64,000 bases of DNA from a phage, in NCBI GenBank assembly GCA_025812035.1, contig GCA_025812035.1_4719.1. One strand, 5' to 3'. The position numbers were made by a program, and so were the translations under genes. Position 1 is the first letter of the stretch. Each line of letters starts with the position of its first letter. The notes beneath the pieces were generated by a model. The model saw nothing but the letters and a program-made list of their open reading frames with translations, had not been told where the DNA came from and did not search any database. This document shows positions 32,677 through 56,140 of this stretch, in pieces.

Positions 32677-33408
32677 TCACCATTCATACGATCCGGCGCA
32701 CTGATGTCCCAACAGCACCAATGCGTCGTCTTTGGCGGCCAGGTATTTTTCCAACGTTATCCGTGAAACAGACACATTGGAGAAATCCATCACACCTAAG
32801 CGATGATCGTAATGGTTAATTTGCATCCGGTAATAACCTTTCTTTACCACCAAAAACTCACCCTGACGCAACCATAACGGAACGTTGTCCACCTCCGCAT
32901 GGATATAAAACACCGGACATTCTGTCGTAACGGAGTTTTCCTTCCCATCACTATCCGTGATCTTCCCTTTGGGAACAGCCGCGATAAAACATTCTCCGAT
33001 ACGTTCGGTTTGATACCCGTTCGGATAGCATGGATCGTGAAATAGCCAATGCTCATCGCTGATATCAACATCGGATAACAGCGTACGATGTGGGCGTAAG
33101 GCGATGTCGAACGGAACACGATAGATAACGTATCCGCCTAACCAATGCGCTAAGTGGCCACCGGAATAGTACTGCTTGATTGCGGTACTGTAACCGTATA
33201 CACAACCCATCAAACTACTGGATACACAGATCCTTGGAAACGATCCATCCTCCATACGCAAGGTACGTTGAGGAATGCGCGGCATCATCGTTTTCAGTTC
33301 GGTATCGGTGCTAATATGCAATAAACCGAAAGGAAGCGTTTTACTCGGGACCCACGCGCAACGTTCCATAATCGCTCTTGGGACAATAGTCTCGATAGAC
33401 GATAACAT
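32677..33408 (-). CDS. hypothetical protein
   Basis: 243-aa ORF. Confidence 0.5.
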   Translation of the reverse strand: MLSSIETIVPRAIMERCAWVPSKTLPFGLLHISTDTELKTMMPRIPQRTLRMEDGSFPRICVSSSLMGCVYGYSTAIKQYYSGGHLAHWLGGYVIYRVPFDIALRPHRTLLSDVDISDEHWLFHDPCYPNGYQTERIGECFIAAVPKGKITDSDGKENSVTTECPVFYIHAEVDNVPLWLRQGEFLVVKKGYYRMQINHYDHRLGVMDFSNVSVSRITLEKYLAAKDDALVLLGHQCAGSYEW

Positions 33409-33409
33409 A

Positions 33410-34120
33410 TCACCCCCTCAGAATCGCTTCTGTTTCGCTGATCGTGTCCGCGGGATAAACCAAACTACTATCGATTGCATTGTTCACGTAACCACCCATC
33501 AGGTTGGTGATGGTGTTTGTGCCGCTATCGATAATGTTTCGTAATCCGATGTCGATGGCTTTTAACGTGCTGCGTTCTTCATCTGAAAGCAGACGCCACG
33601 CCCGACGGCGATCGTTGGGGTCACGCGTGGTGATAGAAGCCAGAACAGAATAGATACTGCTATCCGCATTCAATTTAACACCGGCCAATTTCGCCGATGT
33701 GTAGAGCAGCTGATATTTTTCTTTTTCAGTATACCACCATGGCACTTTACCGAGTGTATAGATCTCGTTATACATCAGCCATGGGAAAGAGTTTCGCATC
33801 ACGACATCGGTCGACACCAACACCGTGTCACCAGGAAGAAATACGAACTCGTAAAACGGCTGACCATCCATGGTAATTTCACGGATGTCAGACGGGTCGA
33901 TATGGAGCTGGGTCAATGCGTGGCTGACACCATACTGACCATCAGGAAGAATAATCGGGCAGCACGCACAAACCCGGTTCTCACTCCCAATGATAGATAA
34001 ACCCAATCCCTCGTAACGGACGGGCGTCAGAATCGAACACCCGCCACGAGTAACAACAGATTTATCTTCTTGTATGTCCCAGTCCGCAAGCACCGCAGCA
34101 CCGTTGCGGACAAGCGCCAT
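33410..34120 (-). CDS. hypothetical protein
   Basis: 236-aa ORF. Confidence 0.5.
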   Translation of the reverse strand: MALVRNGAAVLADWDIQEDKSVVTRGGCSILTPVRYEGLGLSIIGSENRVCACCPIILPDGQYGVSHALTQLHIDPSDIREITMDGQPFYEFVFLPGDTVLVSTDVVMRNSFPWLMYNEIYTLGKVPWWYTEKEKYQLLYTSAKLAGVKLNADSSIYSVLASITTRDPNDRRRAWRLLSDEERSTLKAIDIGLRNIIDSGTNTITNLMGGYVNNAIDSSLVYPADTISETEAILRG

Positions 34121-35952: not shown

Positions 35953-35977
35953 GAGCAGGGGCATGAAGCCCCCTGCT
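35953..35977 (-). terminator. hairpin immediately after RNAP beta-like gene stop
   Basis: Stem AGCAGGGG/CCCCTGCT, then U-rich GTTTATTTCGCT in minus sense. Confidence 0.5.
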
Positions 35978-35978
35978 C

Positions 35979-38900
35979 TTATTTAGCGTCGTTAAAATAA
36001 ATATCAACAGCTCGTTCCGTTGCGTAGAGGAGACCAAGGTTCACAGTCCCAACCACTTCCGGCGAAGCGATGATACGGTTAGCGATACTGGTGCCACTGA
36101 AGATAGCATCAAGGGTGTGCCCGTCTTCGGTTTTGTTCACACCATGACCCACGGAAGAGACAACGGATTTCGCTTGTGCTGCGAAGGTACCCTTATCACC
36201 CATCCCCGCACCAAGGTCGTAACGCATGAAAATACGGATGGCGATCTGGTTCTCGCCTAACGGATTACCGTCTATTCTCACGTTACTGTTGTTGATACGC
36301 CCCGTCGTTGCTTCATTGAGTTTCAGTTCCTTGACGCGTTTAGCTCGCGCTTTATCCGCATCGCCGACGAGCGCCGCCATGGTTTCACTCATATCCTCAA
36401 TCTGAGCGCGGTACAGCACATCGATCTGTACAACTTCACCATGAACGTCAGCACGTGGGTTATACTGACTCATACGACGTAATGCTTCAACAGCTTCCTG
36501 ACTCTCATCACTCAGATCGGTTGCGATCGGTTCTTCCAGTGTTGCAAGAATCGTTCGAGGTTCAACATGATCGCCGATTTTTACGAGACCACGAATGTTG
36601 AGATGGGCGTCAACAATGAGCGTACGGCTCTTAATCGATGGTGTTACGAGACGATCGGCAAGATTGTCGAAGATATACGAACTGTCCTCGTGCGTCTCTG
36701 GAATATCCAGAATACCGACAAGAGACAGGACGCCTGCGCGCCAAACAACCTGACCTGGGTTCCACCAATCGCGTTTAAAATAAAGACGATGGAAAACCAC
36801 CACGTCCTGATCCTTAACGCGATCCCCAACTTTATAATCGGTAATGAGGTCGTGAGGATAATACTTACCTGGTCCTTTCCCGATTATCGTACCGAGTTGG
36901 AAAACCTCTTCTCCTAACTCTGGATCGTCGTATTGTACCGTAAGCGCAGTTTTGGTGACCTTCTTAACAACACCATCGCCTTGGGCAGCTGCGGCGAAGA
37001 GTTTACCGACACGATGCGCGATAACAGTCTCGCCACCCGTACGCCATGGTTGTACATCGTAACCTTCAGCAGCAATCATGCGGTTGTGTTGGATCCCGAC
37101 GAAGACCAGACGTTTTCCATCGTCACGGTCTACAGCCGGAACAGCTAACGCCGATGTACTCATTACCGATGAGATGCCGTCTGTCTTTTCATCGAATGGT
37201 CGTGTTTCACCATATACAGACACGATATTAGCATTAGGTGCCAGATAGGCAGAAATACCTACATCCCCGCTATCCTTCGTACCTTCTGATACAATACCGA
37301 CATCTGACTTATCGTATTCACGATCGCGTGCGCGGCGAAGCGATGTCTTTGAGCGACCCCCGATACCGGTCATCGTTGCTTCTTCACCCTGCTTGATATC
37401 CAGCATCGGGTTGGTTTCATCGATCACGATGGACGCGCTGTCGTCGAGAATTTGGTTCCAGACACTCACTGGACTGATTGAGATTTTCTGTCGGTTTCCT
37501 TGACTGCTGTTCTCGTTTTGACGAATAGCACCAACCAGGTCCTTATACACCAGCTCAGCGAACTTATCGTACGTTTTAAAACGTTGGTAGTTCACATCGT
37601 TCGTGTTAGGTGCCCAATCATCCAGAAGCAGTTCAACAGCACGCAGCAACAACATGGCGAAATCGGTAGGTTCTCCCATGTTCTGTAATAGCGTACGGCT
37701 TACCGGATCGACGAAAAGACGCTCCATGAGTTCAAGTTCGCGTAAATGGCGAACCTTAAGTCCAGCACCATCGACAACGTTAAAATAGATATCTCGATTG
37801 TCAAAAGCACCGCGAGCGTAACCGATGTAGTTACGGTATTCGTTAAACCCACCCATCAACAACGTCGTCATGCGATCGTCTTTACTGAAGATCAAACTTT
37901 CGTCGTCGAAGCTCACCGCGAACTCGTCTGATGCTAAACCCATACGAGAGCCACGAGGAACAGTACGATAATTCGCTTTAAGATGTTCTAATAACGGGGT
38001 AAGCCCACCCAGATAACTTAGAACAACGCCAACCGGAATACGTACGCCCATGAATTCAAGATCGGCAGCTTCGATTGGCATCTTAGCCGCATTGATGCCG
38101 AAGAAATCAGGGAACGTCCCTACAGGTGTTGGTGTTTGTCCTGACTGACAGATATAGAGCTGGTTGCGTTCATCGATCGCTAAGAATTCGCCCGACGTAT
38201 TACGCGCGAACGTCAGGAGTCCTTCGGCTAACTGTTCGTTGAACCGATCTTCCCCAATGAACTCCGGTAACGTTTTTATATCGAGACGTATATCCCAATC
38301 AGCGAATTGGATTTGGGTATAATTGCGCGCAAGCACGGCGAAGTAATACGGGACTTTGACAGCCGGATCAAAGACGTTACCACGTTTTAACGTTGTTAAG
38401 GGCGAGGACTTATCGTAATACATCGCCGTAAGTTGACGTGTTAGCCAACGACCAGCGTTATTAACGACGCGCTCTGAACGTTTAACGAACACCTTACCGT
38501 AGGCGGTACTCAACGCAACTTCGGATGACGATACCTTTCTAATAGGTTTATCAACGCGCTGTTTACGCATCCGGTACTTGATACCGTTAACAACATAAAT
38601 GCCATCCTTACGAACCTTCGGCAACATCACCGGGAACGTGGTTGGGACACCGCCTACAGGAGCCAGTTTAATCGTGATGACTTGATAATCCCCCATCACG
38701 TCAACAACATCTTCAACTTTATATCCCGTAACAGGGTAACCTGCTTGCTGTACCGCAACAACGGCAGCTGCGATGTCCTTTTGCATTACATGTTCAACGT
38801 AATGTTTATCCCACACCGCGAGCGTTGATTTACATAAGCTCTTATCAACGATAACATCCGCTTCCGGCATAACCTTTGCGGGAGCTAGTTTCGCGGCTTT

Positions 38901-40325
38901 TGGTTTAACTTCAACATATTCAGCGAGCGTTAATCCAGAACCGTCAGGTGCTTCGATTTCGTGGATGGCGTCAGCATTACGCATCGCTGCTTTATATTGG
39001 ACGCCACTTAACTGACCTGCATCCGCCAGATCGCTCGCACGCACCAACACCGCATCCGATAACGACTGAATATACTCACCATGTGTTTTTGGTAACGTTG
39101 CTGCGTCAAAGACATCAACCTTTTCTTCGGCGGTATCGTCGGGGACGACTTCGAAGAGATCGTCGGTAATGTCCTGATCTTCATCAGGTTGGAAATCCGG
39201 TTGTACTTCTACCCCAGGTACTTCACGAACATCTTCAAACGTGCGCTCTACGATTGCGTTCCACGCATCAGCATCATCGTCTTCATCCGACCCACCGACC
39301 AACTCCGCTTCTAACTCATCGGGGTCAAGAACAGTGGCCAGATCCTCACCGTTAGGAAGCACGACATCGCGATCATCGTACTCCGCATCCGGGCTGTCCG
39401 CAAGAATATCTCGCTCTTGACGAAGAACCTGTTCCTCTTCTTGTTTCTGTTCTTCTTCATTCGCGCTCTGCGACCACAGACGTGTTACCGCCATCATCCA
39501 ACGACGCTGGAAGGTTTCAAGTGTCGTTTTATCGAGTTCTTCCCCTTCCTTTACGAGCCCGGTACGCCATTCCTCCAGCAGACCGAGATTCAGCGTAAAG
39601 AAGTACACACCGTCTGTAAATACAACGTTAAGCTTATCCAGCGTGGCTCTGTCTAACGAAGCCATCGTGCTGTTCTCACGATCGGTTCCCAACCAGCGGA
39701 AGAAGTCAAAGAACGACAGCTCCTCCGGTGTGGCGAAATTCATGAGGTTGTTACGGGTCGGTGCCTGTTGCGTGGTACGCATCAACGAAATCTTCGGCAA
39801 TGTTGACGGTATACGGAACAACAAAAAGTGTTGACGATCGCTTTGCTGGGCGATTTCGTTGGCTTTCGACCAAATTGTTTTACGTACGTTGAACCACTCA
39901 TCGTACCAACGGGTGAGCGTTGGACGATAGATGTACATGTGGTTAAGATGCGCGTAGTTAGCAACGATCTGCGCGTTGATGTTTTTCTCCACCGTGCTTA
40001 GATCGGTAACCAAACGAAAACGACGATGTGATGCACGATAATCCAATTTCGCTCGTGGAAGTTGGAATCGTTGATCGCGTCGAGGTGCGCCCTGTTTGGT
40101 TGCGAGATCATCAGCAAACGAAATCCATAGTTGAGCATTTTCTTTACTCAGCATGTATTCGTTTTCTGGAGGACCTATCAATGATGGATCCGTTGCGGTG
40201 TAATGATAGACAGCATAACGCGGCAGCTGCAATAGCTGCACTAAACGTAATCTCGGTGACAATAGCTCTTGGTATCGTCTGACGCCAAACTGTCGGTAGT
40301 AATCAAGGTATTTAAGTTTTGCCAT
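35979..40325 (-). CDS. multisubunit RNA polymerase beta-like subunit
   Basis: 1448 aa; GIGGRSKTSLRRARDRE...VGIVSEGTKDSGDVGIS resembles RpoB GPGGLTRERAGFEVRD...ETPEGPNIGL; GDKGTF...EDGHTLD resembles RpoB GDKMAGRHGNKG region. Confidence 0.6.
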   Translation of the reverse strand: MAKLKYLDYYRQFGVRRYQELLSPRLRLVQLLQLPRYAVYHYTATDPSLIGPPENEYMLSKENAQLWISFADDLATKQGAPRRDQRFQLPRAKLDYRASHRRFRLVTDLSTVEKNINAQIVANYAHLNHMYIYRPTLTRWYDEWFNVRKTIWSKANEIAQQSDRQHFLLFRIPSTLPKISLMRTTQQAPTRNNLMNFATPEELSFFDFFRWLGTDRENSTMASLDRATLDKLNVVFTDGVYFFTLNLGLLEEWRTGLVKEGEELDKTTLETFQRRWMMAVTRLWSQSANEEEQKQEEEQVLRQERDILADSPDAEYDDRDVVLPNGEDLATVLDPDELEAELVGGSDEDDDADAWNAIVERTFEDVREVPGVEVQPDFQPDEDQDITDDLFEVVPDDTAEEKVDVFDAATLPKTHGEYIQSLSDAVLVRASDLADAGQLSGVQYKAAMRNADAIHEIEAPDGSGLTLAEYVEVKPKAAKLAPAKVMPEADVIVDKSLCKSTLAVWDKHYVEHVMQKDIAAAVVAVQQAGYPVTGYKVEDVVDVMGDYQVITIKLAPVGGVPTTFPVMLPKVRKDGIYVVNGIKYRMRKQRVDKPIRKVSSSEVALSTAYGKVFVKRSERVVNNAGRWLTRQLTAMYYDKSSPLTTLKRGNVFDPAVKVPYYFAVLARNYTQIQFADWDIRLDIKTLPEFIGEDRFNEQLAEGLLTFARNTSGEFLAIDERNQLYICQSGQTPTPVGTFPDFFGINAAKMPIEAADLEFMGVRIPVGVVLSYLGGLTPLLEHLKANYRTVPRGSRMGLASDEFAVSFDDESLIFSKDDRMTTLLMGGFNEYRNYIGYARGAFDNRDIYFNVVDGAGLKVRHLRELELMERLFVDPVSRTLLQNMGEPTDFAMLLLRAVELLLDDWAPNTNDVNYQRFKTYDKFAELVYKDLVGAIRQNENSSQGNRQKISISPVSVWNQILDDSASIVIDETNPMLDIKQGEEATMTGIGGRSKTSLRRARDREYDKSDVGIVSEGTKDSGDVGISAYLAPNANIVSVYGETRPFDEKTDGISSVMSTSALAVPAVDRDDGKRLVFVGIQHNRMIAAEGYDVQPWRTGGETVIAHRVGKLFAAAAQGDGVVKKVTKTALTVQYDDPELGEEVFQLGTIIGKGPGKYYPHDLITDYKVGDRVKDQDVVVFHRLYFKRDWWNPGQVVWRAGVLSLVGILDIPETHEDSSYIFDNLADRLVTPSIKSRTLIVDAHLNIRGLVKIGDHVEPRTILATLEEPIATDLSDESQEAVEALRRMSQYNPRADVHGEVVQIDVLYRAQIEDMSETMAALVGDADKARAKRVKELKLNEATTGRINNSNVRIDGNPLGENQIAIRIFMRYDLGAGMGDKGTFAAQAKSVVSSVGHGVNKTEDGHTLDAIFSGTSIANRIIASPEVVGTVNLGLLYATERAVDIYFNDAK

Positions 40326-40328
40326 GGG

Positions 40329-41975
40329 TTAGGCTCCACGAGGTCCCGTTAAGTTGCGTAATAGGAACGCAACCGTATCGTAACCAATATCGATGTTGAA
40401 TTTATTTTTACCACTTACCCAGAAAGCACGTTTCTTGTGCGAGTTGGTAATTTCGTCAATGGCTTCCATGGAATAAAGAACGTTAACCGAGACCGTATCG
40501 CCATCAAAGTCCCCACCAAGTCCGGCGAGGTACGGGGCTGGAACAATAGTCGTTTCTACGAACGAAGCATTAGGTAACCAATCTGGGTATTCCCATGCGA
40601 TAAATCGCTCATCCGTTATTGGTTCCCAGTTACTATCCAGTTCGGTTTTCGGTTTTGCTGCAACGGTCGTACGCGCATAACAGGTTAACGGAATGACGGA
40701 TTGCATACCCGATACCGGATAACGTGTTACCATCGCTGCCAGGTTATTCCAGTATTTATATCCAGCAATATAGATAAGCTCAGTATACGTAATGGGGTGA
40801 ACATCCGCCCCGGGTTTGTTAAGCATCTCTGGGGGTAATTCACTCATACCACGGAATAACCGAAACGAATCATTATTCACATAGACCAGGCAGAGATAAC
40901 GTCCATTGACCATGATAGGTTCGTTACGCACACCTGGATCGCTTAAGGTGTTCAGTAAACGTTCTATCCCATCCCATGTTGTAAAGTCATCGATGGTGTC
41001 TGGATCAAGCGTGACGCGTTCACGTTCCATCGTTTCGGTATCAATAAGTTCAACTTCTGTAACATCACGGACAAATATTTCCTGCAAAATCCCCGTACGT
41101 AACGCATGTTGCGTTACTGGGAGAGCAGCTTTACTCATCTGGTATAACCCTAACTGAACTGCAGTACAGGAAGGCTGGTTAGGCGACCCTAGTACCTCCG
41201 TTGTGGGGTTAATTGCTGAAATAACGTTACGGGTTGAGTTCCAAACACGACGTGAGCCGAACTTACCTTGGAAGATCCCTTTCTTACCTTGGAACATATC
41301 CAACAACAAAGCGTAGATGTCGTTAAATGTTCTCTGTAAGCTCCAGCGCTGACCGTCGTAAACGGGATCCGAATAATCTTTTAATCCATCCGGGACGGTG
41401 TTAGAAATTGCCAGGAAACGACGATACAACTCTGTGATTTCTTGCTCGCTTTCATACCCGCCTTCTTTTACTTCTATTTCACGTAAACCCGCAGGTAAAA
41501 CCAGTAGATGACGAGTCATCGCTTTGAACATGTTCTCTTCGACAACCTTGATTCGTAGCTCTCGTTGAGCTGAACCCGTTGAAACGAACTTGATATCAGC
41601 GACGTGTTGTGCAAAGAACCCGTATCCTGTTTGTCCTGTTAGCGCATCGGACGCAACGAAGTCACGTTGTTCAGGATCCCAACGCGCGTACGCCTTCCCC
41701 GACATGATATCACCGTAGAGGTGTTTTAGTCGAATGAGACGATCGTAGATGACAGGGTGTAGGATTTCAACTTTGCATTCAATCACCGCAAATCGACGGT
41801 CTCGATCTTCGCTACCCGCACTACCAAAGATGGTGTATGAATAGAAACCGTCATCGTGGAAATTACCGGTGCTTGGATCACGAATGCTCATGCTCGTGAT
41901 CTTGGGGAGAAAACGTAACTGCTGTTTATCGAGGTGTAAAATGCTAATATTAAACGGCTCTCTGACTTTAGCCAT
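40329..41975 (-). CDS. multisubunit RNA polymerase beta-prime-like N-terminal subunit
   Basis: Start trimmed to ATG 41975 (AAAGAGGAG RBS); RRFAVIECKVEILHPVIY resembles beta-prime RMGHIELAAPVAHIWF; GKFGSRRV...NVISAIN resembles [27 protein letters not shown] catalytic motif near C-terminus. Confidence 0.65.
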   Translation of the reverse strand: MAKVREPFNISILHLDKQQLRFLPKITSMSIRDPSTGNFHDDGFYSYTIFGSAGSEDRDRRFAVIECKVEILHPVIYDRLIRLKHLYGDIMSGKAYARWDPEQRDFVASDALTGQTGYGFFAQHVADIKFVSTGSAQRELRIKVVEENMFKAMTRHLLVLPAGLREIEVKEGGYESEQEITELYRRFLAISNTVPDGLKDYSDPVYDGQRWSLQRTFNDIYALLLDMFQGKKGIFQGKFGSRRVWNSTRNVISAINPTTEVLGSPNQPSCTAVQLGLYQMSKAALPVTQHALRTGILQEIFVRDVTEVELIDTETMERERVTLDPDTIDDFTTWDGIERLLNTLSDPGVRNEPIMVNGRYLCLVYVNNDSFRLFRGMSELPPEMLNKPGADVHPITYTELIYIAGYKYWNNLAAMVTRYPVSGMQSVIPLTCYARTTVAAKPKTELDSNWEPITDERFIAWEYPDWLPNASFVETTIVPAPYLAGLGGDFDGDTVSVNVLYSMEAIDEITNSHKKRAFWVSGKNKFNIDIGYDTVAFLLRNLTGPRGA

Positions 41976-42217
41976 GGAGACACTCCTCTTTACCACCACC
42001 GGCGGCGGTATCATCTGAACACACGAGAGACGTAATGGGTGATGGCGTCACCCATCGCTTCCTTGCTTGAGGCGAGGAAGTTATTAGGTTACGTACCTGT
42101 TTGATAAAATCAAACAGGCGATGTGTGAAGTTACGCTTCAACATTATCAATGCCGAAGGTAAACTTCGTGCATCACGTTCCAACGTAACATGGGAACGTA
42201 TCGAACTGGAGGTATAC

Positions 42218-45200
42218 ATGGTAGATAAAACCCGTGTTGAGGGTGATGATAATTGGGACAACTGGGATGAAGACTTCTCCCTGGATCTCGATTTTAACGA
42301 GCCTAAAGACGATCGTAAACCAATAACACGCTTTGCGATAGGAGCGGTTAAAGGTGCTGCTGAGGATCTTACTTCCTACGAAAGAATGAAGGAGATCGCC
42401 AGAAACGCATTGCCTAAGGGCTATAGCGACGGTATGGATCTTATCGATTCCGCCGTCGGATCCACGAAGGAACTATACAATGAAGCCGTTCGTGATGTTC
42501 TTCCTAAGGTCCAAAGCTCAAAACGGTTAGCAGCACAACTAACCAAGAAATATCGTGCAAGCATGCCCGATTTCTCGAAGAAAATTATCGAGCGTTGGGA
42601 GCAAGAAGCCAAAGAAGAAGACGAACGTAAACAGGCTGAAGCAGAACTCAAGCAACGCATGGCGAACGCGGGAGATGATGAAATCGCCCGTAAGGTTGCC
42701 GAAGCGTTAGGCGAGTCAGCAAACCAAAGCGCGGATCAGTTTGCCGAACAGCAAGCAAAAGAAAGTATCCGTGACGATATTGCCGACAAACGGTACGCTG
42801 TAACCAACAAACAAATGAGTGCGATGCAAGAAGGCGTCGCCAAGATGGTTGGTTTCAACAACGAATTCGCTGCACGCTACATGCGTAAAAGCCTGGAACT
42901 GAAATATCGTTCCTTAGCGATTCAACGTGCAAGTTTTGATCAGCATAAAAAGTTAGCCGAAGTCTATATCGGTTTATTACAAAACATCCAGAAGAACACG
43001 GCTTTACCTGATGCAGCTAAAGCGAAAATGTCGGAAGAATTCCGTCGTAGTGCATACCAACGTTTCTTTGGTAATGCGTTAGATGCGATGAGTTCTTTCG
43101 AGAGCCGTTTCTTTGCCGATGTTAAGAAAAACCTTGCCACCAACGCATTAGGTGCTTTAAAAGGCGTCGTGTCTGGAGCAAACGATGCGTTATACGGTTT
43201 AAACGAAGCGCGTGACTCGATGTCCATGATGGATGGGATGGGGTCAGAAGGCGATATTAAGGAAATGCAAGGAAAGATGTTGGGTCAGTTTATTGGCTCA
43301 ACTGTTGCACCATGGATGGCTAATAAAGGCATGATGGCATTACGCGATTTAGCAAAACGTCATCCCAATGCTAAATTCGCAAGTGCGTTAAAAGCCGTGG
43401 ATCAAGGTGGTGAGGCCGCCGCCTACACAACGCGTAATATCGGTAAACTGCTCCAGGAAGATATTCGTAAAAACGAATTCAATCTTAACGATCCGTTTTA
43501 CAAGCAGTTGTTACGTGGTGCAGGGCGTTGGGCGTTCAACATGGACAGTGGACGTAACTTCCGTGTGATGAACGACACCGCTGAAACACTGGCGGAGCAA
43601 ACGTCATTCGATGGTTTGACTTACCGCAGCATCAATGAGGTTATTCCTGGTTTTCTTGCTCGCATTCTGAAAAGCAGTGAAGGCATCCGCACGGGAAACA
43701 GTGATCCCGACTACGAGGTCTATGACGGCATCAGCGGGCAATTCGTGGCTCAGCGCACGCGCGAACAAAGCGTCAACGACACACTGTTTAACAAACGTTC
43801 GTTTGGTTATTACGCGAGTCGTTTCAATGAGGTCATCTCGGTCATCGATCCCGATAAACAGTTATCGGAAAAAGCCAGGAAGGCATTGGCTAAACAGCTG
43901 GCACGAGACAGTGACGCAAACATCGCATTCGACCCAGCTCGTTTTACGGATGAAAGTAACTTCGATCGCAGTATCGACCGTGACGCTATTAAGGAACTTT
44001 CCACGTACTTCCGTGACCGTTACGGTATTCGCGATCATGTCGATGATAAGGGCGAACGTCAGCAAGTCATTGAAAACCGCGGGCAATATTACACGGAACG
44101 TAACCGAGCGGATCTTCGTTACGGTAATCTGAAATCCTTACAGCCGGATATCCAGCGTAACCTTAACCTACTGAAACGTACTGGCGACGTCCAATATCTG
44201 GAACGTATCGGTATCGTAACAAGAAATAGTGACGGTAGCTACTCGGTTAACCACGATCGGTATTTCTCTGAAATCGATCAATACATCGATCGACCAGAGT
44301 ACGCTGACCGCGGCGATGTCAGTACGCGATTAACCGATCAGGAAACAAGAGCGCTGGCGCTGGGTTATCGTGACGCAAAACCATCAACTGGCGACGTCCA
44401 AAATTCTGGTCTGCCGAACATCGATCGTAAGGCTGCTGGAACAGTAACCGTTGATGAAAACATCGGTTACGATAAATGGTGGAATGACGCAGGTGTTATC
44501 ACCACATCGCTTGAAGAACAGAATCGAGCATGGCAAGAGCTTTATCTCGAAGCGCTGTCTGAAGCATCCGAACAACGTGTTGAGATGCTTGCGTTACTGA
44601 AAGCCATTTCTGAGAAAGACTGGTCTAATAACGTTTCGCTGGATGGCGAAGACGTACCTGAAGGTACAGCACCCATTTCGTTTATCGATCGCGCTAAACA
44701 AAAACTCGGTACACACAACCTCTTTAAACGTGGTCGTAATCTCCTCTGGAAAGGAATTAAAAATACCGCACGGTTGGGTGTTAAAGGTGCGCGTTGGGGT
44801 GCAGAACGCACGTTGGGTAGTTTGGTAAATTCTGGCCGACGTATTATCAACTTCAACCGCTTCGTGTTCGGCGCATTATCCAAGGTTGATCAGGTTCCAT
44901 TCGACATTTACGTTAAAGGGGAATCCCAACCGCGTATATTGGCAGCCAAGCTTCGTCAGGGGTTATACTTCGACGAAGCTACGGGAAAAGCCGTAAAACG
45001 GATGAAGGATATCAAAGGCCCACTCGTTGATGCAGATGGAAACATCGTAATCAGCAACGAGGATATCGAGAAAGGGCTGGTCACTCGCGCCGGTCGTGCT
45101 TTTGAGAATTCGGGACTTAAAGCGTGGGCGCGTGAAGGCCTTAATGGGATAACAACGGTATTAAGTCTACCACGGATGTTAAAACGCGGTGCGGTTGAGA

Positions 45201-48200
45201 TCTATAAACAGCTTGACAAGACGCCCGACGTTTACGTCAAAGGAGAATCAACACCTCGCCTACTGTCCATGGTGTTAGCGGCGGGCGGGTATTTCCGTCG
45301 CTCTGATGGACAAGTCATCAAAAATCTTGAAGACATTGACGGTGACGTTGTTGATGCGCAAGGTAACGTTGTACTTACGCTTGCCGACATGCAGAAAGGG
45401 CTTGTCGATAAAAACGGTAAAGCGATTCGTCGCTTAAAAGAAAAGCTTATCAACTTCGGTGTGAAAGCTTTCACGTTACCGTTAACCCTGCTACGTAAAA
45501 CAAAGGACATCCTTAAAACCCTTCCCAGTAAAACGGTTAATGGTTTACGACGGATGGGATTAAACTTCCAATCACCTGATGCATTATTGGTAGGAACAAC
45601 GTCGGGTATGGTAGATCGCCTCGATGCTATTTACCAGCTTCTTGACCAGCGTATGCCGGGTGGTGACAGGGATTATCGCGATTGGAATGGTGACGGTGTT
45701 CGAGAAGGATCGTTGGAAGACCTGAAACGTAAACGTGAAGCCAAGGAAAACGGTAAGGATAACGCAGGCAAAGATTCTGGTAAAGGAGAAGAAAAGGAGA
45801 AGAAACGAGGATTACTCGGAAGCCTTTTCGATATGCTCGGCGATACCGCGTTAGGTAAACGACTCATGGCGAGTCCGCTTGGAAAAATCCTAGGTGGTCT
45901 TGGGGCGGTGTTAAGTGGTGGTGCATCACTAACCGGGTTGTTAGGTAAGGGACTTGTTAGAGGAACCGGTGCGCTGGTTAGAGGAGGACTCAGTGCGGCG
46001 GGATGGTTAGGACGTGGTGCGCTGATGGCTGGTGGGGCCGCACTTAATGCTGTTGGTGGTATGGCTGGACTAGGCGCGTTCCTCATCTCACCTGTTGGGC
46101 TTGCTATTGCTGGCGGTGCGTTGGCTGCTTATGCTGGATGGAAAATCTATCAGCATTTCGCTGAGAAGCCTGACCCAATGCAGAAGCTCCGTCTTATTGC
46201 ATACGGTGCAAAAGGGGACGATAAAGACTTCAATAAGAAGTTGCTTGCGACAGAAACATACCTCACCGATCACGTGGTCATGACCGGGGACACCATCGGA
46301 TTCGATCCAAAAGCCGATTCTGAAAAGATTCTCGAAATCTGGGAATTGTCTCTGGAAGATTCCGATCGAATGAACGAATGGAAACGTTGGTATCTGCATC
46401 GTTTTATTCCTGTTTTCGCTCGTGCGTACAAACTCTGGAAAGAGCATATGCCGGACGAGAAGAAATACATGGAAATGGACAAATATCCAAACGGTGAGAA
46501 CAAAGTGAAATGGTCGGAAGCATTCATCTGGCCTTCCGATAGTCCTGACGGTCCGTATTACGTTGAGGCGAATCCGTTGGGTTCTTCCGGCGCGACGCTT
46601 TATATTGCCGGTCAAGACGTCAAAACCTTGATGCTGAAACAACTCGAAGCCATCAAGAAAGAGTACCAGAATCAGATTAAACAATACTCTCATGATGAGG
46701 CTATTGCTGATTGGTCACGGATGTCTGACACACAGCGTAAATCCGTCGCACCTAATGCGTTGCGAGGCCAGAAAGCGTCATTACGTTTTAACGATAAACG
46801 TTACAACAGTGCTGGTGCTAAAGGACGACAGAAACTGGATGCAACCGCGGTTATCGAAAGCGTAGACCGTCGTGGTAGAAAATGGGTTGCCGGTGGGTAC
46901 ATCGATGAACTCACCAGTCTCCGTGTTCGTGCGTACGGTATTAAGGTTCCGTTGCTAAGCCAGATAAAAGTGCTGATGGAACTCGAAGACGCTGTAGAAC
47001 CGGGCGTTGTCGCTGAAGGTAAAGGCGTTAAATACGGCGGTGATCTTGTCGCTCTCTACAAGAAATTCGCGACGAAGTTCGGAAGAGACGTTAACGGTAA
47101 ACAGGATCAGGATATCTGGTTTGCTTGGATGAACAACCGTTTCCTGCCCGTCTTTTTAACCTATTACCAACAAGTTAGCGAAATGGGTGGTCAAGGTCTT
47201 CTGTCCGATGTGGTACAGAACCTGAAAGACAGCCAACGTTGGGAAATCGGTGAAGCGCTTGTCGCGACGCAATACCGCGATAAAAAGGGTGCGCTACAAC
47301 CCGTGTGGTCGTGGAATAGCTGCGGTTTCTCCGGTACCGAAGCCAACACCACCAGCAGTTCAACAAAGAGCCAGCTCGATCTGTTAAAAGAATACGCGGA
47401 TAAAGAGAAGGTTCGTGAGAAGAACGCGGAAGCATCGCAAGAGGATACCGATAAATTATCGAAGATCCAAGAGCTGATGATGAAGCAGGCTGGGTACGAG
47501 AAGAAAGACGGTGTCTGGCAGAAGAAATCTCGCATTACCGGCGGAATGAGTAATTCCGAAGCGAATTACAACCCCAATGGGAATAAAGTCGGTGCAAGCA
47601 GCTTTACCGCCTCGGCTACTTCCGGTGCGGGATTGGGATCAACCGGCGATCTTACTGGGTTGCCGAACATGGGCTTACAGAAACCTGCAACGGGACCAGG
47701 TCCTGAAGCTGGACGACGTACGCTTGTTAAATCCGCTGTGAAACACGGCATCACCGATCCAATGGAAATGGCCATGTTCCTTGCGAACATCGAACATGAA
47801 TCGGGGAACTACACTCACGTACGTGAGGGGAACTATAAGACGCCCGAGCGTCTTAAACAGGTCTTCCCTTACAAATTCCGTGACGTGCAGGATGCCGCAC
47901 AGACGATTAGCATGGGGCCAGAAGCGGTATTCGAACGTGTGTATGGTAATCGTAAAGATCTAGGGAACACACAGAAAGGGGACGGAGCGAAGTATTTAGG
48001 ACGTGGCTTCATTCAGGTTACCGGTAAAGCTAACTACGCTCGTCTGTCCAAGACCTTGAATAAGGATCTTGTCAGCGATCCGTCTTACCTGGAAACGCCG
48101 GAAGGTGCAGCGGAAGGTAGTGTTGCGTGGTGGCTCAACCGAGGTAACGTACTACGTGATCCCGCAAAACGGGGTGATGTACGCAAAGTTCGTTATCTGG

Positions 48201-48883
48201 TTAACGGCGGCTATAACGGATTACGTGATGTCGAACAACGTTCTGCCTATTGGATTCAGGCGGCTAAGAATGGCACCCTGAAGAAAATGATGGACGAGTT
48301 ATCGGGATCAACATCGGGCGATCAAACTGAAGGACCAACTACCGCCGAACAGGTGAAGAACGAAGCAGCGCAGGAGGCAAACGGAACACCTGCGACAAGC
48401 AACGATCCGCAAGCTCCAGCGCCTTCTACCACCCCTGAAGCTAAACCGGCTGCGGCTGCCGGGACGGCTCCAGCACCCGGAGAAACGTCACCGACACCTG
48501 GAAGTTTCGAAACAGCAAAAGCCGCAGCAGGACAACCGGCATCAACCCCAGCACCGAGCGATTTACCGTCAAACCCCGGCGCAAATCGAGGGATATCGGT
48601 TCCGAGCACACCTACACAGGTTGCGCAGTCAGCGTCACAAACATCGGCTGCAAGCGAGAACTTCTACGGTAGCGCAGGCGAAATTCTCCGACAACAGCTG
48701 ACCACACAGCAGAACATCGAGAAGAACACTGGTAGAACGAATGAACTTATTTCGGAACTGATCCAGGCCGTTAAGGGTTCTTCTATCGGTAAGGGTTCTG
48801 CAAGTCCTTCTCAACAACAGACGATGCCGCTACCTAATCGTCCGCAAGGAATCTCTCCGACACGGACAAGGTACGCACAGTAG
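42218..48883 (+). CDS. giant virion-associated protein with C-terminal GH19 peptidoglycan-hydrolase domain (phiKZ gp181-like)
   Basis: ~2221 aa from ATG 42218 (GGAGG RBS); GH19-like block FLANIEHESGNY...YLGRGFIQVTGKANY (~47720-48290); Gly-rich hydrophobic segment; tandem ~105-aa repeat; Pro/Ala/Thr-rich tail. Confidence 0.7.
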   Translation: MVDKTRVEGDDNWDNWDEDFSLDLDFNEPKDDRKPITRFAIGAVKGAAEDLTSYERMKEIARNALPKGYSDGMDLIDSAVGSTKELYNEAVRDVLPKVQSSKRLAAQLTKKYRASMPDFSKKIIERWEQEAKEEDERKQAEAELKQRMANAGDDEIARKVAEALGESANQSADQFAEQQAKESIRDDIADKRYAVTNKQMSAMQEGVAKMVGFNNEFAARYMRKSLELKYRSLAIQRASFDQHKKLAEVYIGLLQNIQKNTALPDAAKAKMSEEFRRSAYQRFFGNALDAMSSFESRFFADVKKNLATNALGALKGVVSGANDALYGLNEARDSMSMMDGMGSEGDIKEMQGKMLGQFIGSTVAPWMANKGMMALRDLAKRHPNAKFASALKAVDQGGEAAAYTTRNIGKLLQEDIRKNEFNLNDPFYKQLLRGAGRWAFNMDSGRNFRVMNDTAETLAEQTSFDGLTYRSINEVIPGFLARILKSSEGIRTGNSDPDYEVYDGISGQFVAQRTREQSVNDTLFNKRSFGYYASRFNEVISVIDPDKQLSEKARKALAKQLARDSDANIAFDPARFTDESNFDRSIDRDAIKELSTYFRDRYGIRDHVDDKGERQQVIENRGQYYTERNRADLRYGNLKSLQPDIQRNLNLLKRTGDVQYLERIGIVTRNSDGSYSVNHDRYFSEIDQYIDRPEYADRGDVSTRLTDQETRALALGYRDAKPSTGDVQNSGLPNIDRKAAGTVTVDENIGYDKWWNDAGVITTSLEEQNRAWQELYLEALSEASEQRVEMLALLKAISEKDWSNNVSLDGEDVPEGTAPISFIDRAKQKLGTHNLFKRGRNLLWKGIKNTARLGVKGARWGAERTLGSLVNSGRRIINFNRFVFGALSKVDQVPFDIYVKGESQPRILAAKLRQGLYFDEATGKAVKRMKDIKGPLVDADGNIVISNEDIEKGLVTRAGRAFENSGLKAWAREGLNGITTVLSLPRMLKRGAVEIYKQLDKTPDVYVKGESTPRLLSMVLAAGGYFRRSDGQVIKNLEDIDGDVVDAQGNVVLTLADMQKGLVDKNGKAIRRLKEKLINFGVKAFTLPLTLLRKTKDILKTLPSKTVNGLRRMGLNFQSPDALLVGTTSGMVDRLDAIYQLLDQRMPGGDRDYRDWNGDGVREGSLEDLKRKREAKENGKDNAGKDSGKGEEKEKKRGLLGSLFDMLGDTALGKRLMASPLGKILGGLGAVLSGGASLTGLLGKGLVRGTGALVRGGLSAAGWLGRGALMAGGAALNAVGGMAGLGAFLISPVGLAIAGGALAAYAGWKIYQHFAEKPDPMQKLRLIAYGAKGDDKDFNKKLLATETYLTDHVVMTGDTIGFDPKADSEKILEIWELSLEDSDRMNEWKRWYLHRFIPVFARAYKLWKEHMPDEKKYMEMDKYPNGENKVKWSEAFIWPSDSPDGPYYVEANPLGSSGATLYIAGQDVKTLMLKQLEAIKKEYQNQIKQYSHDEAIADWSRMSDTQRKSVAPNALRGQKASLRFNDKRYNSAGAKGRQKLDATAVIESVDRRGRKWVAGGYIDELTSLRVRAYGIKVPLLSQIKVLMELEDAVEPGVVAEGKGVKYGGDLVALYKKFATKFGRDVNGKQDQDIWFAWMNNRFLPVFLTYYQQVSEMGGQGLLSDVVQNLKDSQRWEIGEALVATQYRDKKGALQPVWSWNSCGFSGTEANTTSSSTKSQLDLLKEYADKEKVREKNAEASQEDTDKLSKIQELMMKQAGYEKKDGVWQKKSRITGGMSNSEANYNPNGNKVGASSFTASATSGAGLGSTGDLTGLPNMGLQKPATGPGPEAGRRTLVKSAVKHGITDPMEMAMFLANIEHESGNYTHVREGNYKTPERLKQVFPYKFRDVQDAAQTISMGPEAVFERVYGNRKDLGNTQKGDGAKYLGRGFIQVTGKANYARLSKTLNKDLVSDPSYLETPEGAAEGSVAWWLNRGNVLRDPAKRGDVRKVRYLVNGGYNGLRDVEQRSAYWIQAAKNGTLKKMMDELSGSTSGDQTEGPTTAEQVKNEAAQEANGTPATSNDPQAPAPSTTPEAKPAAAAGTAPAPGETSPTPGSFETAKAAAGQPASTPAPSDLPSNPGANRGISVPSTPTQVAQSASQTSAASENFYGSAGEILRQQLTTQQNIEKNTGRTNELISELIQAVKGSSIGKGSASPSQQQTMPLPNRPQGISPTRTRYAQ
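44897..45540 (+). repeat. tandem duplication of a ~105-109-aa module inside the giant virion protein gene
   Basis: PFDIYVKGESQPRILAAKL... vs PDVYVKGESTPRLLSMVLA..., matching periodic D/G/K positions; diverged at nucleotide level. Confidence 0.5.
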
Positions 48884-55465: not shown

Positions 55466-56140
55466 TTAGCCCTCATCGAGGTTGTTCTGGAGATGCATCG
55501 CGGTGAGAATAACGCCAACAGCGGAAACCGATTTTGCTTTACTGTCTTCAGGGAGCTGTTCCAAGCTTACAGTACCTGTTTCTAGCAACATGCGGTTCAT
55601 TGCGTTGAACTTCTTATCATCACCACCACGAGCCTGCATCAACTCTCGGTTCACGTTCGGCATCGAGCGTCCTAACGTCGCTTGCATCTCCGGTTGACTC
55701 CAAGTAGAACCTTTACTATCACCAGTCGGCTGATTGGTGAGCTGGTCCTTGGTGTTGTTGTTTTTCGGAATCGATATTTTAGCGCTCAACGTTTCGGCTT
55801 GCCGACGATTTGGAATCAGGTACAATCTGGTTGGACGATCACGAAGCACCAATTGTCCTGTTTTCTGATCGGTGAGATAAATGCGTTGGAAGAAAGGGAA
55901 ACCGTATTTCTTACCGACTTCCAACGCACGTTTTATCGTCACCTCGTTTTTGTTCATATTGGGTACCCAGATGGGTAGAATCTCTTTCTTATCCCGACAT
56001 AAACGCATATAAGCATCAAACGTCTCATCATCGATTTCAGCGAAACGTTTTTTGTAAATAGCGTATGTCGGGCTCGATTCTCCCACCAGGTCTTTGATGT
56101 ACCCGAGAATGAATTTTTCTGCTGCAGCGCGGTTGGACAT
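55466..56140 (-). CDS. hypothetical protein
   Basis: 224-aa ORF. Confidence 0.5.
   Translation of the reverse strand: MSNRAAAEKFILGYIKDLVGESSPTYAIYKKRFAEIDDETFDAYMRLCRDKKEILPIWVPNMNKNEVTIKRALEVGKKYGFPFFQRIYLTDQKTGQLVLRDRPTRLYLIPNRRQAETLSAKISIPKNNNTKDQLTNQPTGDSKGSTWSQPEMQATLGRSMPNVNRELMQARGGDDKKFNAMNRMLLETGTVSLEQLPEDSKAKSVSAVGVILTAMHLQNNLDEG

What the first reader, a model, noticed from the sequence alone, without database searches (positions are those of the whole stretch)
35979..41975. Split multisubunit RNA polymerase: beta-prime N-terminal fragment and beta-like subunit, translationally coupled
Gene 40329-41975 carries beta-prime N-terminal motifs and ends shortly after the catalytic DFDGD motif, so beta-prime is split here. 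The stop of that gene lies 3 nt from the ATG of a 1448-aa beta-like gene with RpoB-like fork and GDK-region motifs. The pair is divergent from the giant virion gene, as phiKZ virion-RNAP genes sit beside gp181.
Basis: partly seen in the sequence, partly recalled or inferred. Interest (0 to 1): 0.75.

Follow-up and report, generated by a model that had tools for sequence, protein, structure and literature searches.

The report
Known jumbo-phage virion RNA polymerase genes

Summary
There is a 548-aa gene (40329-41975, minus strand) with DFDGD at residues 489-493, 55 residues before its stop. After a 3-nt spacer comes a 1448-aa gene (35979-40325). The pair is divergent from a 2260-aa virion lysozyme gene.

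Family profiles hit RNAP beta' (AR9 phage beta', E=3e-16; E. coli beta' 211-356, E=4e-6) and RNAP beta (Thermus beta, E=1e-14; hhalign to E. coli beta 513-1109, 97%).

The window is a Goslar-like E. coli chimallivirus, 93-95% nt identical and collinear with Goslar. The two proteins are orthologues of Goslar gp205/gp207 (99.8% and 99.3% aa) and phiKZ gp180/gp178. These are virion RNAP (vRNAP) subunits, found by mass spectrometry in Goslar virions. The virion-versus-non-virion question is therefore already answered.

Two refinements:
- The 1448-aa protein is betaN only. It stops after the GDK region, and a 224-aa betaC lies at 55466-56140.
- Its first ~420-490 residues have no counterpart in bacterial beta. 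The first ~255 correspond to a propeptide removed in phage 201phi2-1.

Beta' is split in three. A 236-aa homologue of the subunit published as beta'C lies at 33410-34120.

The only new item is minor. This phage lacks the group I intron that Goslar carries inside the DFDGD codons.

Verdict: already known, low interest.

The parts
40329..41975 (-). vRNAP beta'N gene, 548 aa (orthologue of Goslar gp205, phiKZ gp180, SPN3US gp240). Covers the beta' zipper/lid/rudder/switch-2 region and the catalytic Mg loop. It has no N-terminal Cys4 zinc motif.
   Evidence: PHROG 2986, E=2e-179; 38% identity to phiKZ gp180, E=1e-104; 1 aa different from spliced Goslar gp205.
40497..40511 (-). Codons of DFDGD (residues 489-493), the catalytic metal-binding loop. 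The boundary 40509|40508 (between the D489 and F490 codons) is where Goslar, the metagenomic relative L019, phiKZ and LucasX carry a group I intron. The site is empty here.
40326..40328 (-). 3-nt spacer (CCC) between the beta'N stop TAA (40331-40329) and the betaN ATG (40325-40323). GGAG lies 8 nt upstream of the ATG, inside the end of beta'N.
   Evidence: Comparable 0-3 nt spacing or overlap in PA1C, RP31, N1M2, L020 and 201phi2-1; 18-20 nt in SPN3US and Huxley.
35979..40325 (-). vRNAP betaN gene, 1448 aa (orthologue of Goslar gp207, phiKZ gp178, SPN3US gp241).
   Evidence: PHROG 3148, E=0; 32% identity to phiKZ gp178 over the full length.
39561..40325 (-). betaN residues 1-~255: an N-terminal domain conserved among chimalliviruses, ending at the LNLGLLEEWR motif, with no counterpart in bacterial beta. 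It corresponds to the propeptide removed at TFE-275 in 201phi2-1.
   Evidence: Alignments; PMC5694885. No Pfam or PDB match.
39081..39473 (-). betaN residues ~285-415: a variable, strongly acidic linker (E/D-rich).
   Evidence: Length and sequence are not conserved between relatives.
35982..38858 (-). betaN residues ~490-1448: the beta-homologous core. Includes the NG..YRMR motif at 580-587, fork/Rif region 966-1000, DDxKR..Q 1068-1079, ED 1213-1214 and GDK...K 1376-1386. It ends at the equivalent of E. coli beta ~1110.
35953..35978 (-). Terminator-like hairpin (9-bp stem, 7 GC pairs, T-rich tail) directly after the betaN stop codon. The same position is annotated as a terminator in Goslar.
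55466..56140 (-). vRNAP betaC gene, 224 aa (100% identical to Goslar gp196; orthologue of SPN3US gp218). Supplies the part of beta missing from the 1448-aa protein.
   Evidence: PHROG 3233, E=1e-65; BLASTP to E. coli beta 1159-1219; hhalign to beta 1163-1310, E=1.2e-4, probability 56%.
33410..34120 (-). 236-aa virion protein, homologue of Goslar gp210, phiKZ gp176 and SPN3US gp244. SPN3US gp244 is reported in the literature as vRNAP beta'C.
   Evidence: 30% identity, E=2e-23 to SPN3US gp244; PMC5694885. My own hhalign against E. coli beta' and beta was negative.
41976..42124 (.). Divergent intergenic region between beta'N and the giant virion gene. Contains three short inverted repeats and an ~18-19-nt block (about 42001-42020) identical in the window, Goslar and the 60%-aa relative L020.
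42101..48883 (+). Giant virion protein with a C-terminal lysozyme domain (orthologue of phiKZ gp181, Goslar gp204), transcribed divergently. The start codon is uncertain: TTG 42101 by the mechanical ORF call, or possibly GTG 42125.

Best explanation
The two genes encode the beta'N (548 aa) and betaN (1448 aa) subunits of the virion-packaged multisubunit RNA polymerase (vRNAP) of a Goslar-like E. coli phage of the Chimalliviridae.

**Shown here**
- beta'N carries the lid/rudder/switch-2 region and the Mg-binding DFDGD loop.
- betaN carries the fork/Rif region, the ED pair and the two lysines of the GDK region. Together these make up the two halves of the double-psi beta-barrel active site.
- Neither protein is complete. 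A 224-aa betaC lies at 55466-56140 in this window. A 236-aa homologue of the published beta'C subunit lies at 33410-34120.

**From the literature on orthologues**
- The fifth piece, beta'M (Goslar gp78), lies outside the window.
- The five pieces assemble in the cytoplasm without alpha, omega or sigma homologues and enter the prohead only as a complete complex.
- They are present at roughly 5-30 copies per virion and are ejected with the DNA into the early-infection vesicle, where they transcribe early genes independently of the host polymerase.

**Inferred**
- The two genes are co-transcribed from the divergent intergenic region up to the hairpin at 35953-35978.
- The 3-nt stop-start spacing with an internal GGAG helps give matched amounts of the two subunits.
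- The N-terminal ~255-residue domain of betaN is an assembly or capsid-targeting module rather than part of the catalytic core.
For: - **Family membership:** PHROG hits; PDB profile hits to beta' and beta; hhalign to E. coli RpoB at 97.3% and to RpoC over the DFDGD region.
- **Orthology:** 99.8% and 99.3% aa identity to Goslar gp205/gp207; 38% and 32% to phiKZ gp180/gp178 over the full length; a single matching locus per phage genome in ~310 genomes, so the non-virion paralogue is not what is matched.
- **Synteny:** identical order of head protease, beta'C, gp177-like gene, betaN, beta'N, then divergent gp181-like gene in phiKZ, Goslar, SPN3US, PA1C, RP31, N1M2 and L020.
- **Virion location:** Goslar virion mass spectrometry lists gp78, gp196, gp205, gp207 and gp210 as the five vRNAP subunits. 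phiKZ gp180 co-precipitates gp178/gp80/gp149 and is packaged and injected (PMC10612078). SPN3US amber mutants lose all five subunits together (PMC5694885).
- **Selection:** 1 and 10 aa changes against 91 and about 195 nt changes relative to Goslar.
Against: - Nothing contradicts the assignment.
- Pfam models do not detect either protein, and a single-sequence PDB search of betaN finds nothing. Homology to cellular beta is visible only with family profiles and only for residues ~570-1420.
- AlphaFold models were unusable (pLDDT 39 and 35), so the fold was not checked independently.
- The beta'C assignment of the 236-aa protein could not be reproduced with my shallow profile.
- Virion presence, co-transcription and translational coupling were not and cannot be tested here for this particular phage.
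Confidence: 0.95

Rival explanations
1. The pair belongs to the non-virion polymerase (nvRNAP), which is made early and works inside the phage nucleus on middle and late genes, rather than to the injected enzyme.
For: Both enzymes are built from split beta/beta' pieces with a DFDGD-bearing beta'N, so motifs alone cannot separate them. beta'N gives a weak second hit to PHROG 2987, another family annotated as RNA polymerase beta subunit (E=1.4e-5).
Against: - The best families score E=2e-179 and E=0, against 1e-5 for the other family.
- The proteins are full-length orthologues of phiKZ gp180/gp178 and Goslar gp205/gp207, which are detected in virions.
- The genes sit in the head-gene cluster next to the prohead protease and the gp181-like gene.
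- Another Goslar gene annotated as RNA polymerase (similar to beta prime), gp247, which I take to be an nvRNAP piece, lies just outside the left end of the window.
Confidence: 0.03
2. The apparent split of beta' is an artefact. On this view the gene ends after DFDGD only because an intron or frameshift interrupts a longer gene whose remainder lies nearby.
For: Introns do interrupt this very gene in relatives: Goslar, L019, phiKZ, LucasX and VP4B. Database annotations of Goslar gp205 and phiKZ gp180 are truncated at the intron.
Against: - No Rfam group I intron is found anywhere in the window.
- The stop codon is followed after 3 nt by the betaN start.
- The same C-terminus (...LRNLTG...) and the same adjacency occur in intron-free relatives PA1C, RP31, N1M2, L020 and SPN3US.
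- Spliced Goslar gp205 is also exactly 548 aa.
- SPN3US gp240 is listed at 59.6 kDa in the virion mass-spectrometry table.
Confidence: 0.01
3. The large protein is a fusion in which only the C-terminal third is polymerase-related. On this view its main role is structural, as an inner-head or ejection protein, rather than catalytic.
For: About 420-490 N-terminal residues have no counterpart in bacterial beta and include a long acidic linker. Confident homology to cellular beta covers only 966-1420. PhiKZ annotates gp178 as a 'structural head protein'.
Against: - Weak but collinear matches extend the beta homology back to residue ~570: IPLMT.NG.F.ING motif, and a global hhalign with E=0.0018.
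- All active-site residues expected of beta (ED, K...K, DDxxR...Q) are invariant in the 10-sequence family alignment.
- In 201phi2-1 the N-terminal 275 residues are cut off as a propeptide. This argues that the extension is an assembly device added to a working beta, not the reverse.
Confidence: 0.04

Closest known systems
Escherichia phage vB_EcoM_Goslar gp205 and gp207 (vRNAP beta'N and betaN)
   Same: 99.8% and 99.3% amino-acid identity, with the same lengths (548 after splicing, and 1448). Same neighbours, same terminator hairpin and same 3-nt junction. The whole window is collinear with Goslar 171,234-237,291 at 93-95% nt identity.
   Different: Goslar's beta'N gene is interrupted between the D489 and F490 codons by a 2044-nt group I intron carrying an HNH endonuclease ORF (gp206); the window has no intron. 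Six consecutive synonymous differences flank the site.
Pseudomonas phage phiKZ gp180 and gp178 (vRNAP subunits, with gp149 and gp80)
   Same: Full-length orthologues (38% and 32% identity) with identical gene order beside gp181 and the gp175 protease. Experimentally shown to be packaged, injected and to co-precipitate (PMC10612078).
   Different: phiKZ has the intron plus HNH ORF gp179 at the same D|FDGD position. The host and the acidic-linker sequence differ.
Salmonella phage SPN3US vRNAP: gp240 (beta'N), gp241 (betaN), gp218 (betaC), gp42 (beta'M), gp244 (beta'C)
   Same: Same five-piece architecture and local synteny. Homologues of four of the five pieces are in this window. Genetics shows all five are needed for any of them to be packaged (PMC5694885).
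   Different: About 29-34% identity. An 18-nt gap rather than 3 nt between beta'N and betaN. The window has an extra 243-aa gene between beta'C and the protease.
Pseudomonas phage 201phi2-1 gp275 and gp273/274
   Same: Orthologues. The N-terminal domain of betaN aligns up to the LNLG.L.EWR motif.
   Different: In 201phi2-1 the first 275 residues of betaN are removed by the prohead protease (PMC5694885), and its betaN gene carries a mobile intron. Whether the window protein is processed is unknown.
phiKZ and AR9 non-virion RNAPs (solved structures, e.g. AR9 7S00/7S01)
   Same: Same kind of sigma/alpha/omega-less split beta/beta' enzyme. AR9 beta'N is the best PDB match of the beta'N profile (E=2.6e-16).
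   Different: A paralogous enzyme that is not packaged and has a different fifth subunit (gp68/gp226). The betaN profile does not reach its beta chains at E<=1.
Split beta' of cyanobacteria and chloroplasts (gamma/rpoC1 plus beta'/rpoC2)
   Same: A naturally split beta' whose N-terminal piece carries DFDGD. These chains are hit by the beta'N profile at about 1e-8 to 1e-6.
   Different: The cellular N-terminal pieces are longer (624-688 aa), so the split lies further downstream, and beta is not split. Here beta' ends ~55 residues after DFDGD and is cut into three pieces.

Membership tests
Multisubunit RNAP beta' (N-terminal part) | Catalytic (N)ADFDGD metal-binding loop | tested here: met
   GGDFDGD at residues 487-493. 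D489, D491, G492 and D493 are invariant in the family alignment. Aligned to E. coli 458-464 by hhalign.
Multisubunit RNAP beta' (N-terminal part) | Profile-level similarity over the lid/rudder/switch-2 region | tested here: met
   Family profile against PDB: AR9 beta'N E=2.6e-16, E. coli beta' 211-356 E=4e-6. Pfam models themselves do not fire.
Multisubunit RNAP beta' (N-terminal part) | Double-psi beta-barrel fold | tested here: inconclusive
   No structure model was attempted for this protein, and the AlphaFold runs on the partner protein failed. Only 3 usable homologues were available.
Multisubunit RNAP beta | Collinear conserved regions: fork/Rif region, DDxxR..Q, (N)FEDS, GDK...K | tested here: met
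   Profile against PDB: E=1.4e-14 to Thermus beta in four collinear segments. hhalign 97.3% to E. coli beta 513-1109. E1213, D1214, D1377, K1378 and K1386 are invariant.
Multisubunit RNAP beta | Complete beta including the C-terminal region (E. coli ~1110-1342) | tested here: not met
   The protein ends at the equivalent of E. coli ~1110. The missing part is a separate 224-aa gene. The protein is therefore betaN, not full beta.
phiKZ-like / Chimalliviridae virion RNAP (vRNAP) | Orthology to phiKZ gp180 and gp178 rather than to the nvRNAP paralogues | tested here: met
   E=1e-104 and E=0 over the full length. One locus per genome in tblastn. PHROG 2986 and 3148.
phiKZ-like / Chimalliviridae virion RNAP (vRNAP) | Location in the head-gene cluster, divergent from the gp181-like giant lysozyme gene | tested here: met
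phiKZ-like / Chimalliviridae virion RNAP (vRNAP) | Full five-piece set (beta'N, beta'M, beta'C, betaN, betaC) | tested here: met
   Homologues of four pieces were found in the window. The fifth (Goslar gp78) lies outside the 64-kb window and could not be checked.
phiKZ-like / Chimalliviridae virion RNAP (vRNAP) | Physical presence in virions and injection with the DNA | not testable with these tools
   Shown for the 99%-identical Goslar proteins by LC-MS/MS, and for phiKZ gp180 by western blot and fluorescence.
phiKZ-like non-virion RNAP (nvRNAP) | Best match to nvRNAP subunit families; early-gene location | tested here: not met
   Only a marginal hit to a second RNAP PHROG (2987, E=1.4e-5, against 2e-179 for 2986). 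The genes sit among virion genes.

The most novel reading that the evidence does not exclude
Goslar-like E. coli phages show three different states at the DFDGD codons of the vRNAP beta'N gene, which can be read as the stages of a homing cycle.
- Intron plus HNH endonuclease ORF: Goslar.
- ORF-less intron: metagenomic contig L019.
- Empty site: this window and L020.

The empty allele here has C instead of the U that a group I 5' splice site needs. It also has six consecutive synonymous changes across the homing site. It could therefore be a naturally endonuclease-resistant allele.

If so, Goslar and this phage would form a ready-made E. coli pair for testing intron-mediated interference between co-infecting jumbo phages, as reported for PhiPA3 against phiKZ.

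Separately, the N-terminal ~255-residue domain plus acidic linker of betaN could be the signal that takes the pre-assembled polymerase into the prohead.
Probability: 0.3. Interest if true: 0.4.

Novelty: already known. Interest (0 to 1): 0.13.

Why it matters
The finding adds little beyond confirmation. The split virion RNA polymerase of phiKZ-like phages has been known since 2008-2015. The Goslar orthologues of these two genes are annotated in RefSeq as RNA polymerase subunits and have been detected in virions.

There is some practical value:
- The intron-free gene gives the mature beta'N sequence directly. The RefSeq entries for Goslar gp205 and phiKZ gp180 stop at the intron and lack FDGD and the last 59 residues.
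- Homologues of four of the five vRNAP subunit genes are located in this window.
- The intron presence/absence difference between near-identical E. coli phages could be used to study homing and phage-phage competition.
- No structure of any vRNAP was found in the paper library searched or among the PDB sequence matches. The role of the betaN N-terminal extension and how a ~400-kDa enzyme passes through the tail remain open, but this window does not make those questions newly testable.

Tried and rejected
- **Pfam-A** on both proteins, and on betaC and the beta'C homologue, gave no significant family. Curated cellular models are too distant, so family profiles were needed.
- **Single-sequence PDB search of betaN** found nothing relevant.
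- **The search for homologous proteins** returned only 3 relatives, both with the single protein and with a 10-sequence alignment that contained GenBank phage proteins. That collection evidently lacks the published phage proteins, so I did not spend the third search.
These were unusable, so no fold search was made.
- **hhalign of the 236-aa family** (4 sequences) against E. coli beta' and beta showed no similarity. Its beta'C role rests on the literature and on orthology to SPN3US gp244.
- **betaC profile against PDB** gave no hit. Only the directed comparison with E. coli beta gave a moderate, collinear match.
- **Sigma-70 promoter scan** found fewer sites than in shuffles, as expected for a phage that uses its own polymerases.
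- **Search for further copies of the conserved intergenic block** found none beyond chance, so it is not a recurrent promoter consensus in this window.
- **The nvRNAP reading, an intron-artefact reading of the split, and a purely structural reading of the large protein** were considered and rejected (see rival explanations).

Full report
**1. The observation**

The mechanical ORF list gives a 1448-aa ORF at 35979-40325 (minus strand) and an ORF at 40329-42014 (minus strand). Within the second, the ATG at 41975 is preceded by AGAGGAG. By coordinate mapping it is the start annotated for the Goslar orthologue. An in-frame ATG at 42014 has no ribosome-binding site and is a less likely start.

DFDGD occupies residues 489-493, and the protein ends 55 residues later. 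On the minus strand the junction reads TAA-CCC-ATG, so the spacer is exactly 3 nt, with GGAG 8 nt upstream of the ATG.

The 2260-aa ORF at 42101-48883 (+) is divergent. It carries a C-terminal endolysin domain. All stated features are present.

**2. What the window is**

Megablast finds a single close relative, Escherichia phage vB_EcoM_Goslar, at 95.3% over the region. A local BLAST shows the whole 64-kb window collinear with Goslar 171,234-237,291 at 93-95% identity. There is only one large indel, about 2 kb, inside the beta'N gene.

The window therefore comes from a second Goslar-like E. coli phage of the nucleus-forming family Chimalliviridae. It also carries the genes for chimallin, PhuZ, terminase, tail sheath and the head protease.

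**3. Are the two proteins RNA polymerase pieces?**

Pfam does not recognise either protein. PHROGs does, with E=2e-179 and E=0 for families annotated as RNA polymerase beta subunit.

*The 548-aa protein*
- A single-sequence PDB search already reaches the beta'N subunit of the AR9 phage polymerase (E=4e-4).
- A five-sequence family profile raises this to 2.6e-16.
- The same profile hits chloroplast beta' and cyanobacterial gamma (rpoC1-type) chains (about 1e-8 to 1e-6) and E. coli beta' 211-356, the lid-rudder-switch 2 region (4e-6).
- hhalign puts DFDGD on E. coli NADFDGD.

*The 1448-aa protein*
- A single-sequence PDB search fails.
- A ten-sequence profile hits bacterial beta subunits at E=1.4e-14 in four collinear segments.
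- hhalign aligns residues 966-1422 to E. coli beta 513-1109 with 97.3% probability.
- Aligned features are the fork/Rif region; DDxKR..Q with DDANR..Q; HEDS with NFEDS; and GDKGTFAAQAKS with GDKMAGRHGNKG.
- E1213, D1214, K1378 and K1386 are invariant in the family.
- A looser alignment extends the collinearity back to the IPLMT.NGTFVING motif at residues 569-590.

**4. Virion or non-virion enzyme?**

The proteins are full-length orthologues of phiKZ gp180 (38%, E=1e-104) and gp178 (32%, E=0). The local gene order is the same in phiKZ, Goslar, SPN3US, PA1C, RP31, N1M2 and a metagenomic relative. That order is protease, 240-aa protein, 500-aa protein, small ORF, betaN, beta'N, then the divergent giant lysozyme protein.

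tblastn finds one locus per genome in about 310 jumbo-phage genomes, so the paralogous non-virion genes are not what is matched.

The literature settles the location:
- phiKZ vRNAP consists of gp178, gp149, gp180 and gp80 (PMC8287921).
- Tagged gp180 co-precipitates the others, is packaged at ~10 copies per virion and enters the cell with the DNA (PMC10612078).

The window proteins differ from Goslar gp205 and gp207 by 1 and 10 residues.

**5.

(a) *The large protein is betaN.* It stops at the equivalent of E. coli beta ~1110. The 224-aa gene at 55466-56140 is 100% identical to Goslar gp196 and matches PHROG 3233 at E=1e-65. It aligns collinearly to E. coli beta 1159-1219 by BLASTP and to 1163-1310 by hhalign (E=1.2e-4, probability 56%). 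This is moderate evidence. It agrees with SPN3US gp218, which is published as betaC.

(b) *Beta' is in three pieces.* SPN3US work names gp240 beta'N, gp42 beta'M and gp244 beta'C. The 236-aa gene at 33410-34120 is the syntenic homologue of gp244 (30% identity, E=2e-23). I could not reproduce its similarity to beta' with a four-sequence profile.

(c) *betaN has an N-terminal extension.* Roughly the first 420-490 residues have no counterpart in bacterial beta.
- Residues 1-~255 form a domain conserved across chimalliviruses.
- An acidic, variable linker follows at ~285-415.
- In 201phi2-1 the first 275 residues are removed by the prohead protease. That cut maps just after the end of the conserved domain.
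- In SPN3US the protein is not processed.
- The state in Goslar-like phages is unknown.

**6. How it most likely works**

*Shown by sequence.* The two proteins supply the two halves of the active centre.

*From orthologues.*
- The five pieces assemble before packaging. SPN3US amber mutants in one subunit lose all five from the particle.
- The pieces are ejected with the DNA into the early-infection vesicle.
- There they transcribe early genes, including those of the second polymerase.

*Inferred.*
- The pair is co-transcribed from the 150-bp divergent region and terminated at the strong hairpin at 35953-35978, directly after the betaN stop.
- The near-abutting stop and start help to match the amounts of the two subunits. 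The spacing is 0-3 nt or overlapping in five further relatives (PA1C, RP31, N1M2, L020 and 201phi2-1) and 18-20 nt in two (SPN3US and Huxley).
- Positions that give rifampicin resistance in E. coli are substituted in the hhalign alignment: H526 aligns with Q, R529 with E and S531 with T. This fits the known rifampicin-insensitive infection (my reading of the alignment).

**7. The one real difference from Goslar**

Goslar's beta'N gene is interrupted exactly between the D489 and F490 codons by a 2044-nt group I intron. The intron scores 67.7 bits on Rfam RF00028. It carries gp206, which has an HNH_3 domain. Splicing restores a 548-aa protein with one residue different from the window's.

| Source | State at the DFDGD codons |
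|---|---|
| Window | No intron |
| L020 (60%-aa relative, Logan contig) | No intron |
| Goslar | 2044-nt intron with HNH ORF at D\|FDGD |
| L019 (third Goslar-like phage, Logan contig) | 544-nt ORF-less intron at the same site (63.5 bits) |
| phiKZ | Intron at the same site (92 bits; adjacent HNH ORF gp179) |
| LucasX | Intron at the same site |
| VP4B | Intron 12 nt downstream |

All four alleles with an intron at D|FDGD use GAT for that Asp. A group I 5' splice site needs a U there. All five intron-free alleles checked use GAC.

Between the window and Goslar, six consecutive wobble positions (-6 to +9 around the site) differ, against 5.5% divergence gene-wide. Another 30-nt stretch of the gene is even more divergent, so this is suggestive only.

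Mobile introns in vRNAP genes, and their use in phage-phage competition, are already described for PhiPA3 and phiKZ (PMC12908238).

**8. What failed**

- The large protein collection returned only three relatives, even for queries that contained published phage proteins.
- The two AlphaFold runs on shallow alignments were useless.
- No fold comparison was therefore possible. The case rests on sequence profiles, orthology, synteny and the literature.

**9. Verdict**

The feature is already known: these are the beta'N and betaN genes of the chimallivirus virion RNA polymerase, in a close relative of phage Goslar. Interest is low. The only mildly new points are the intron-free allele at an intron hotspot and the precise mapping in this window of homologues of four of the five subunit genes.

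Noticed in passing
window 40497-40511 (site 40509|40508); L001 13531-15574; L019 1027-1570: Intron presence/absence polymorphism inside the DFDGD codons of beta'N. Goslar has a 2044-nt group I intron with an HNH ORF. A metagenomic Goslar-like contig (L019) has a 544-nt ORF-less intron at the same site. The window and L020 have none. Intron-bearing alleles use GAT and intron-free alleles use GAC for Asp489. Six consecutive synonymous differences flank the site between the window and Goslar.
   Followed up: yes
L001 15533-17041 (Goslar gp205); L002 9787-11259 (phiKZ gp180): Public annotations of the intron-bearing orthologues are truncated. Goslar gp205 is annotated as 502 aa ending in 13 intron-encoded residues, and phiKZ gp180 stops at the first Asp of DFDGD. 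In both, the second exon (FDGD plus 55 residues) is unannotated, so the catalytic motif is missing from the database proteins.
   Followed up: yes
window 55466-56140 (-) and 33410-34120 (-): Two further genes in the window encode vRNAP subunit homologues: a 224-aa betaC (identical to Goslar gp196) and a 236-aa homologue of SPN3US gp244 (published as beta'C). Only beta'M (Goslar gp78) lies outside the window.
   Followed up: partly
window 42001-42020: An ~18-19-nt block (minus strand GTTCAGATGATACCGCCG) is identical in the window, Goslar and the 60%-aa relative L020, although the rest of the intergenic region has diverged. It contains an ATG (42014) that stays in frame with beta'N in all three despite indels of 3 and 9 nt. 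It could be a promoter or start-site element, or a short 5' coding extension. It is not repeated elsewhere in the window.
   Followed up: partly
window 42035-42118: Three short inverted repeats lie in the divergent intergenic region: ATGGGTGA/TCACCCAT, CTTCCT/AGGAAG and CCTGTTTGA/TCAAACAGG. They are conserved in Goslar, with two changes in the third. Their function is unknown; terminators make little sense between divergent genes.
   Followed up: no
window 35953-35978: A strong, symmetric terminator-like hairpin (9-bp stem, 7 GC pairs) abuts the betaN stop codon. It is scored on both strands and is annotated as a terminator in Goslar.
   Followed up: partly
window 32677-33408 (-): A 243-aa gene of unknown function (PHROG 5043) sits between the beta'C homologue and the head protease. 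It has no counterpart at that position in phiKZ or SPN3US.
   Followed up: no
L005 3029-4369 (LucasX): In Xanthomonas phage LucasX a 446-aa ORF lies between beta'N exon 2 and betaN, breaking the usual adjacency. It gives only a weak, sub-threshold hit to phiKZ-like internal head proteins (PF12699, E=1e-3).
   Followed up: no
window 64000 / Goslar 237,291: The right end of the window falls 16 bp before the end of the linear Goslar record. The left end falls inside the chimallin gene. The window thus matches the right-hand ~66 kb of the Goslar genome as deposited.
   Followed up: no
protein collection: The large protein collection returned only three relatives of betaN, all from Logan assemblies, even when the query alignment contained published phage proteins. 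One cluster has 665 member sequences, so Goslar-like phages appear in many sequencing runs while the GenBank phage proteins themselves seem to be absent from that collection.
   Followed up: no
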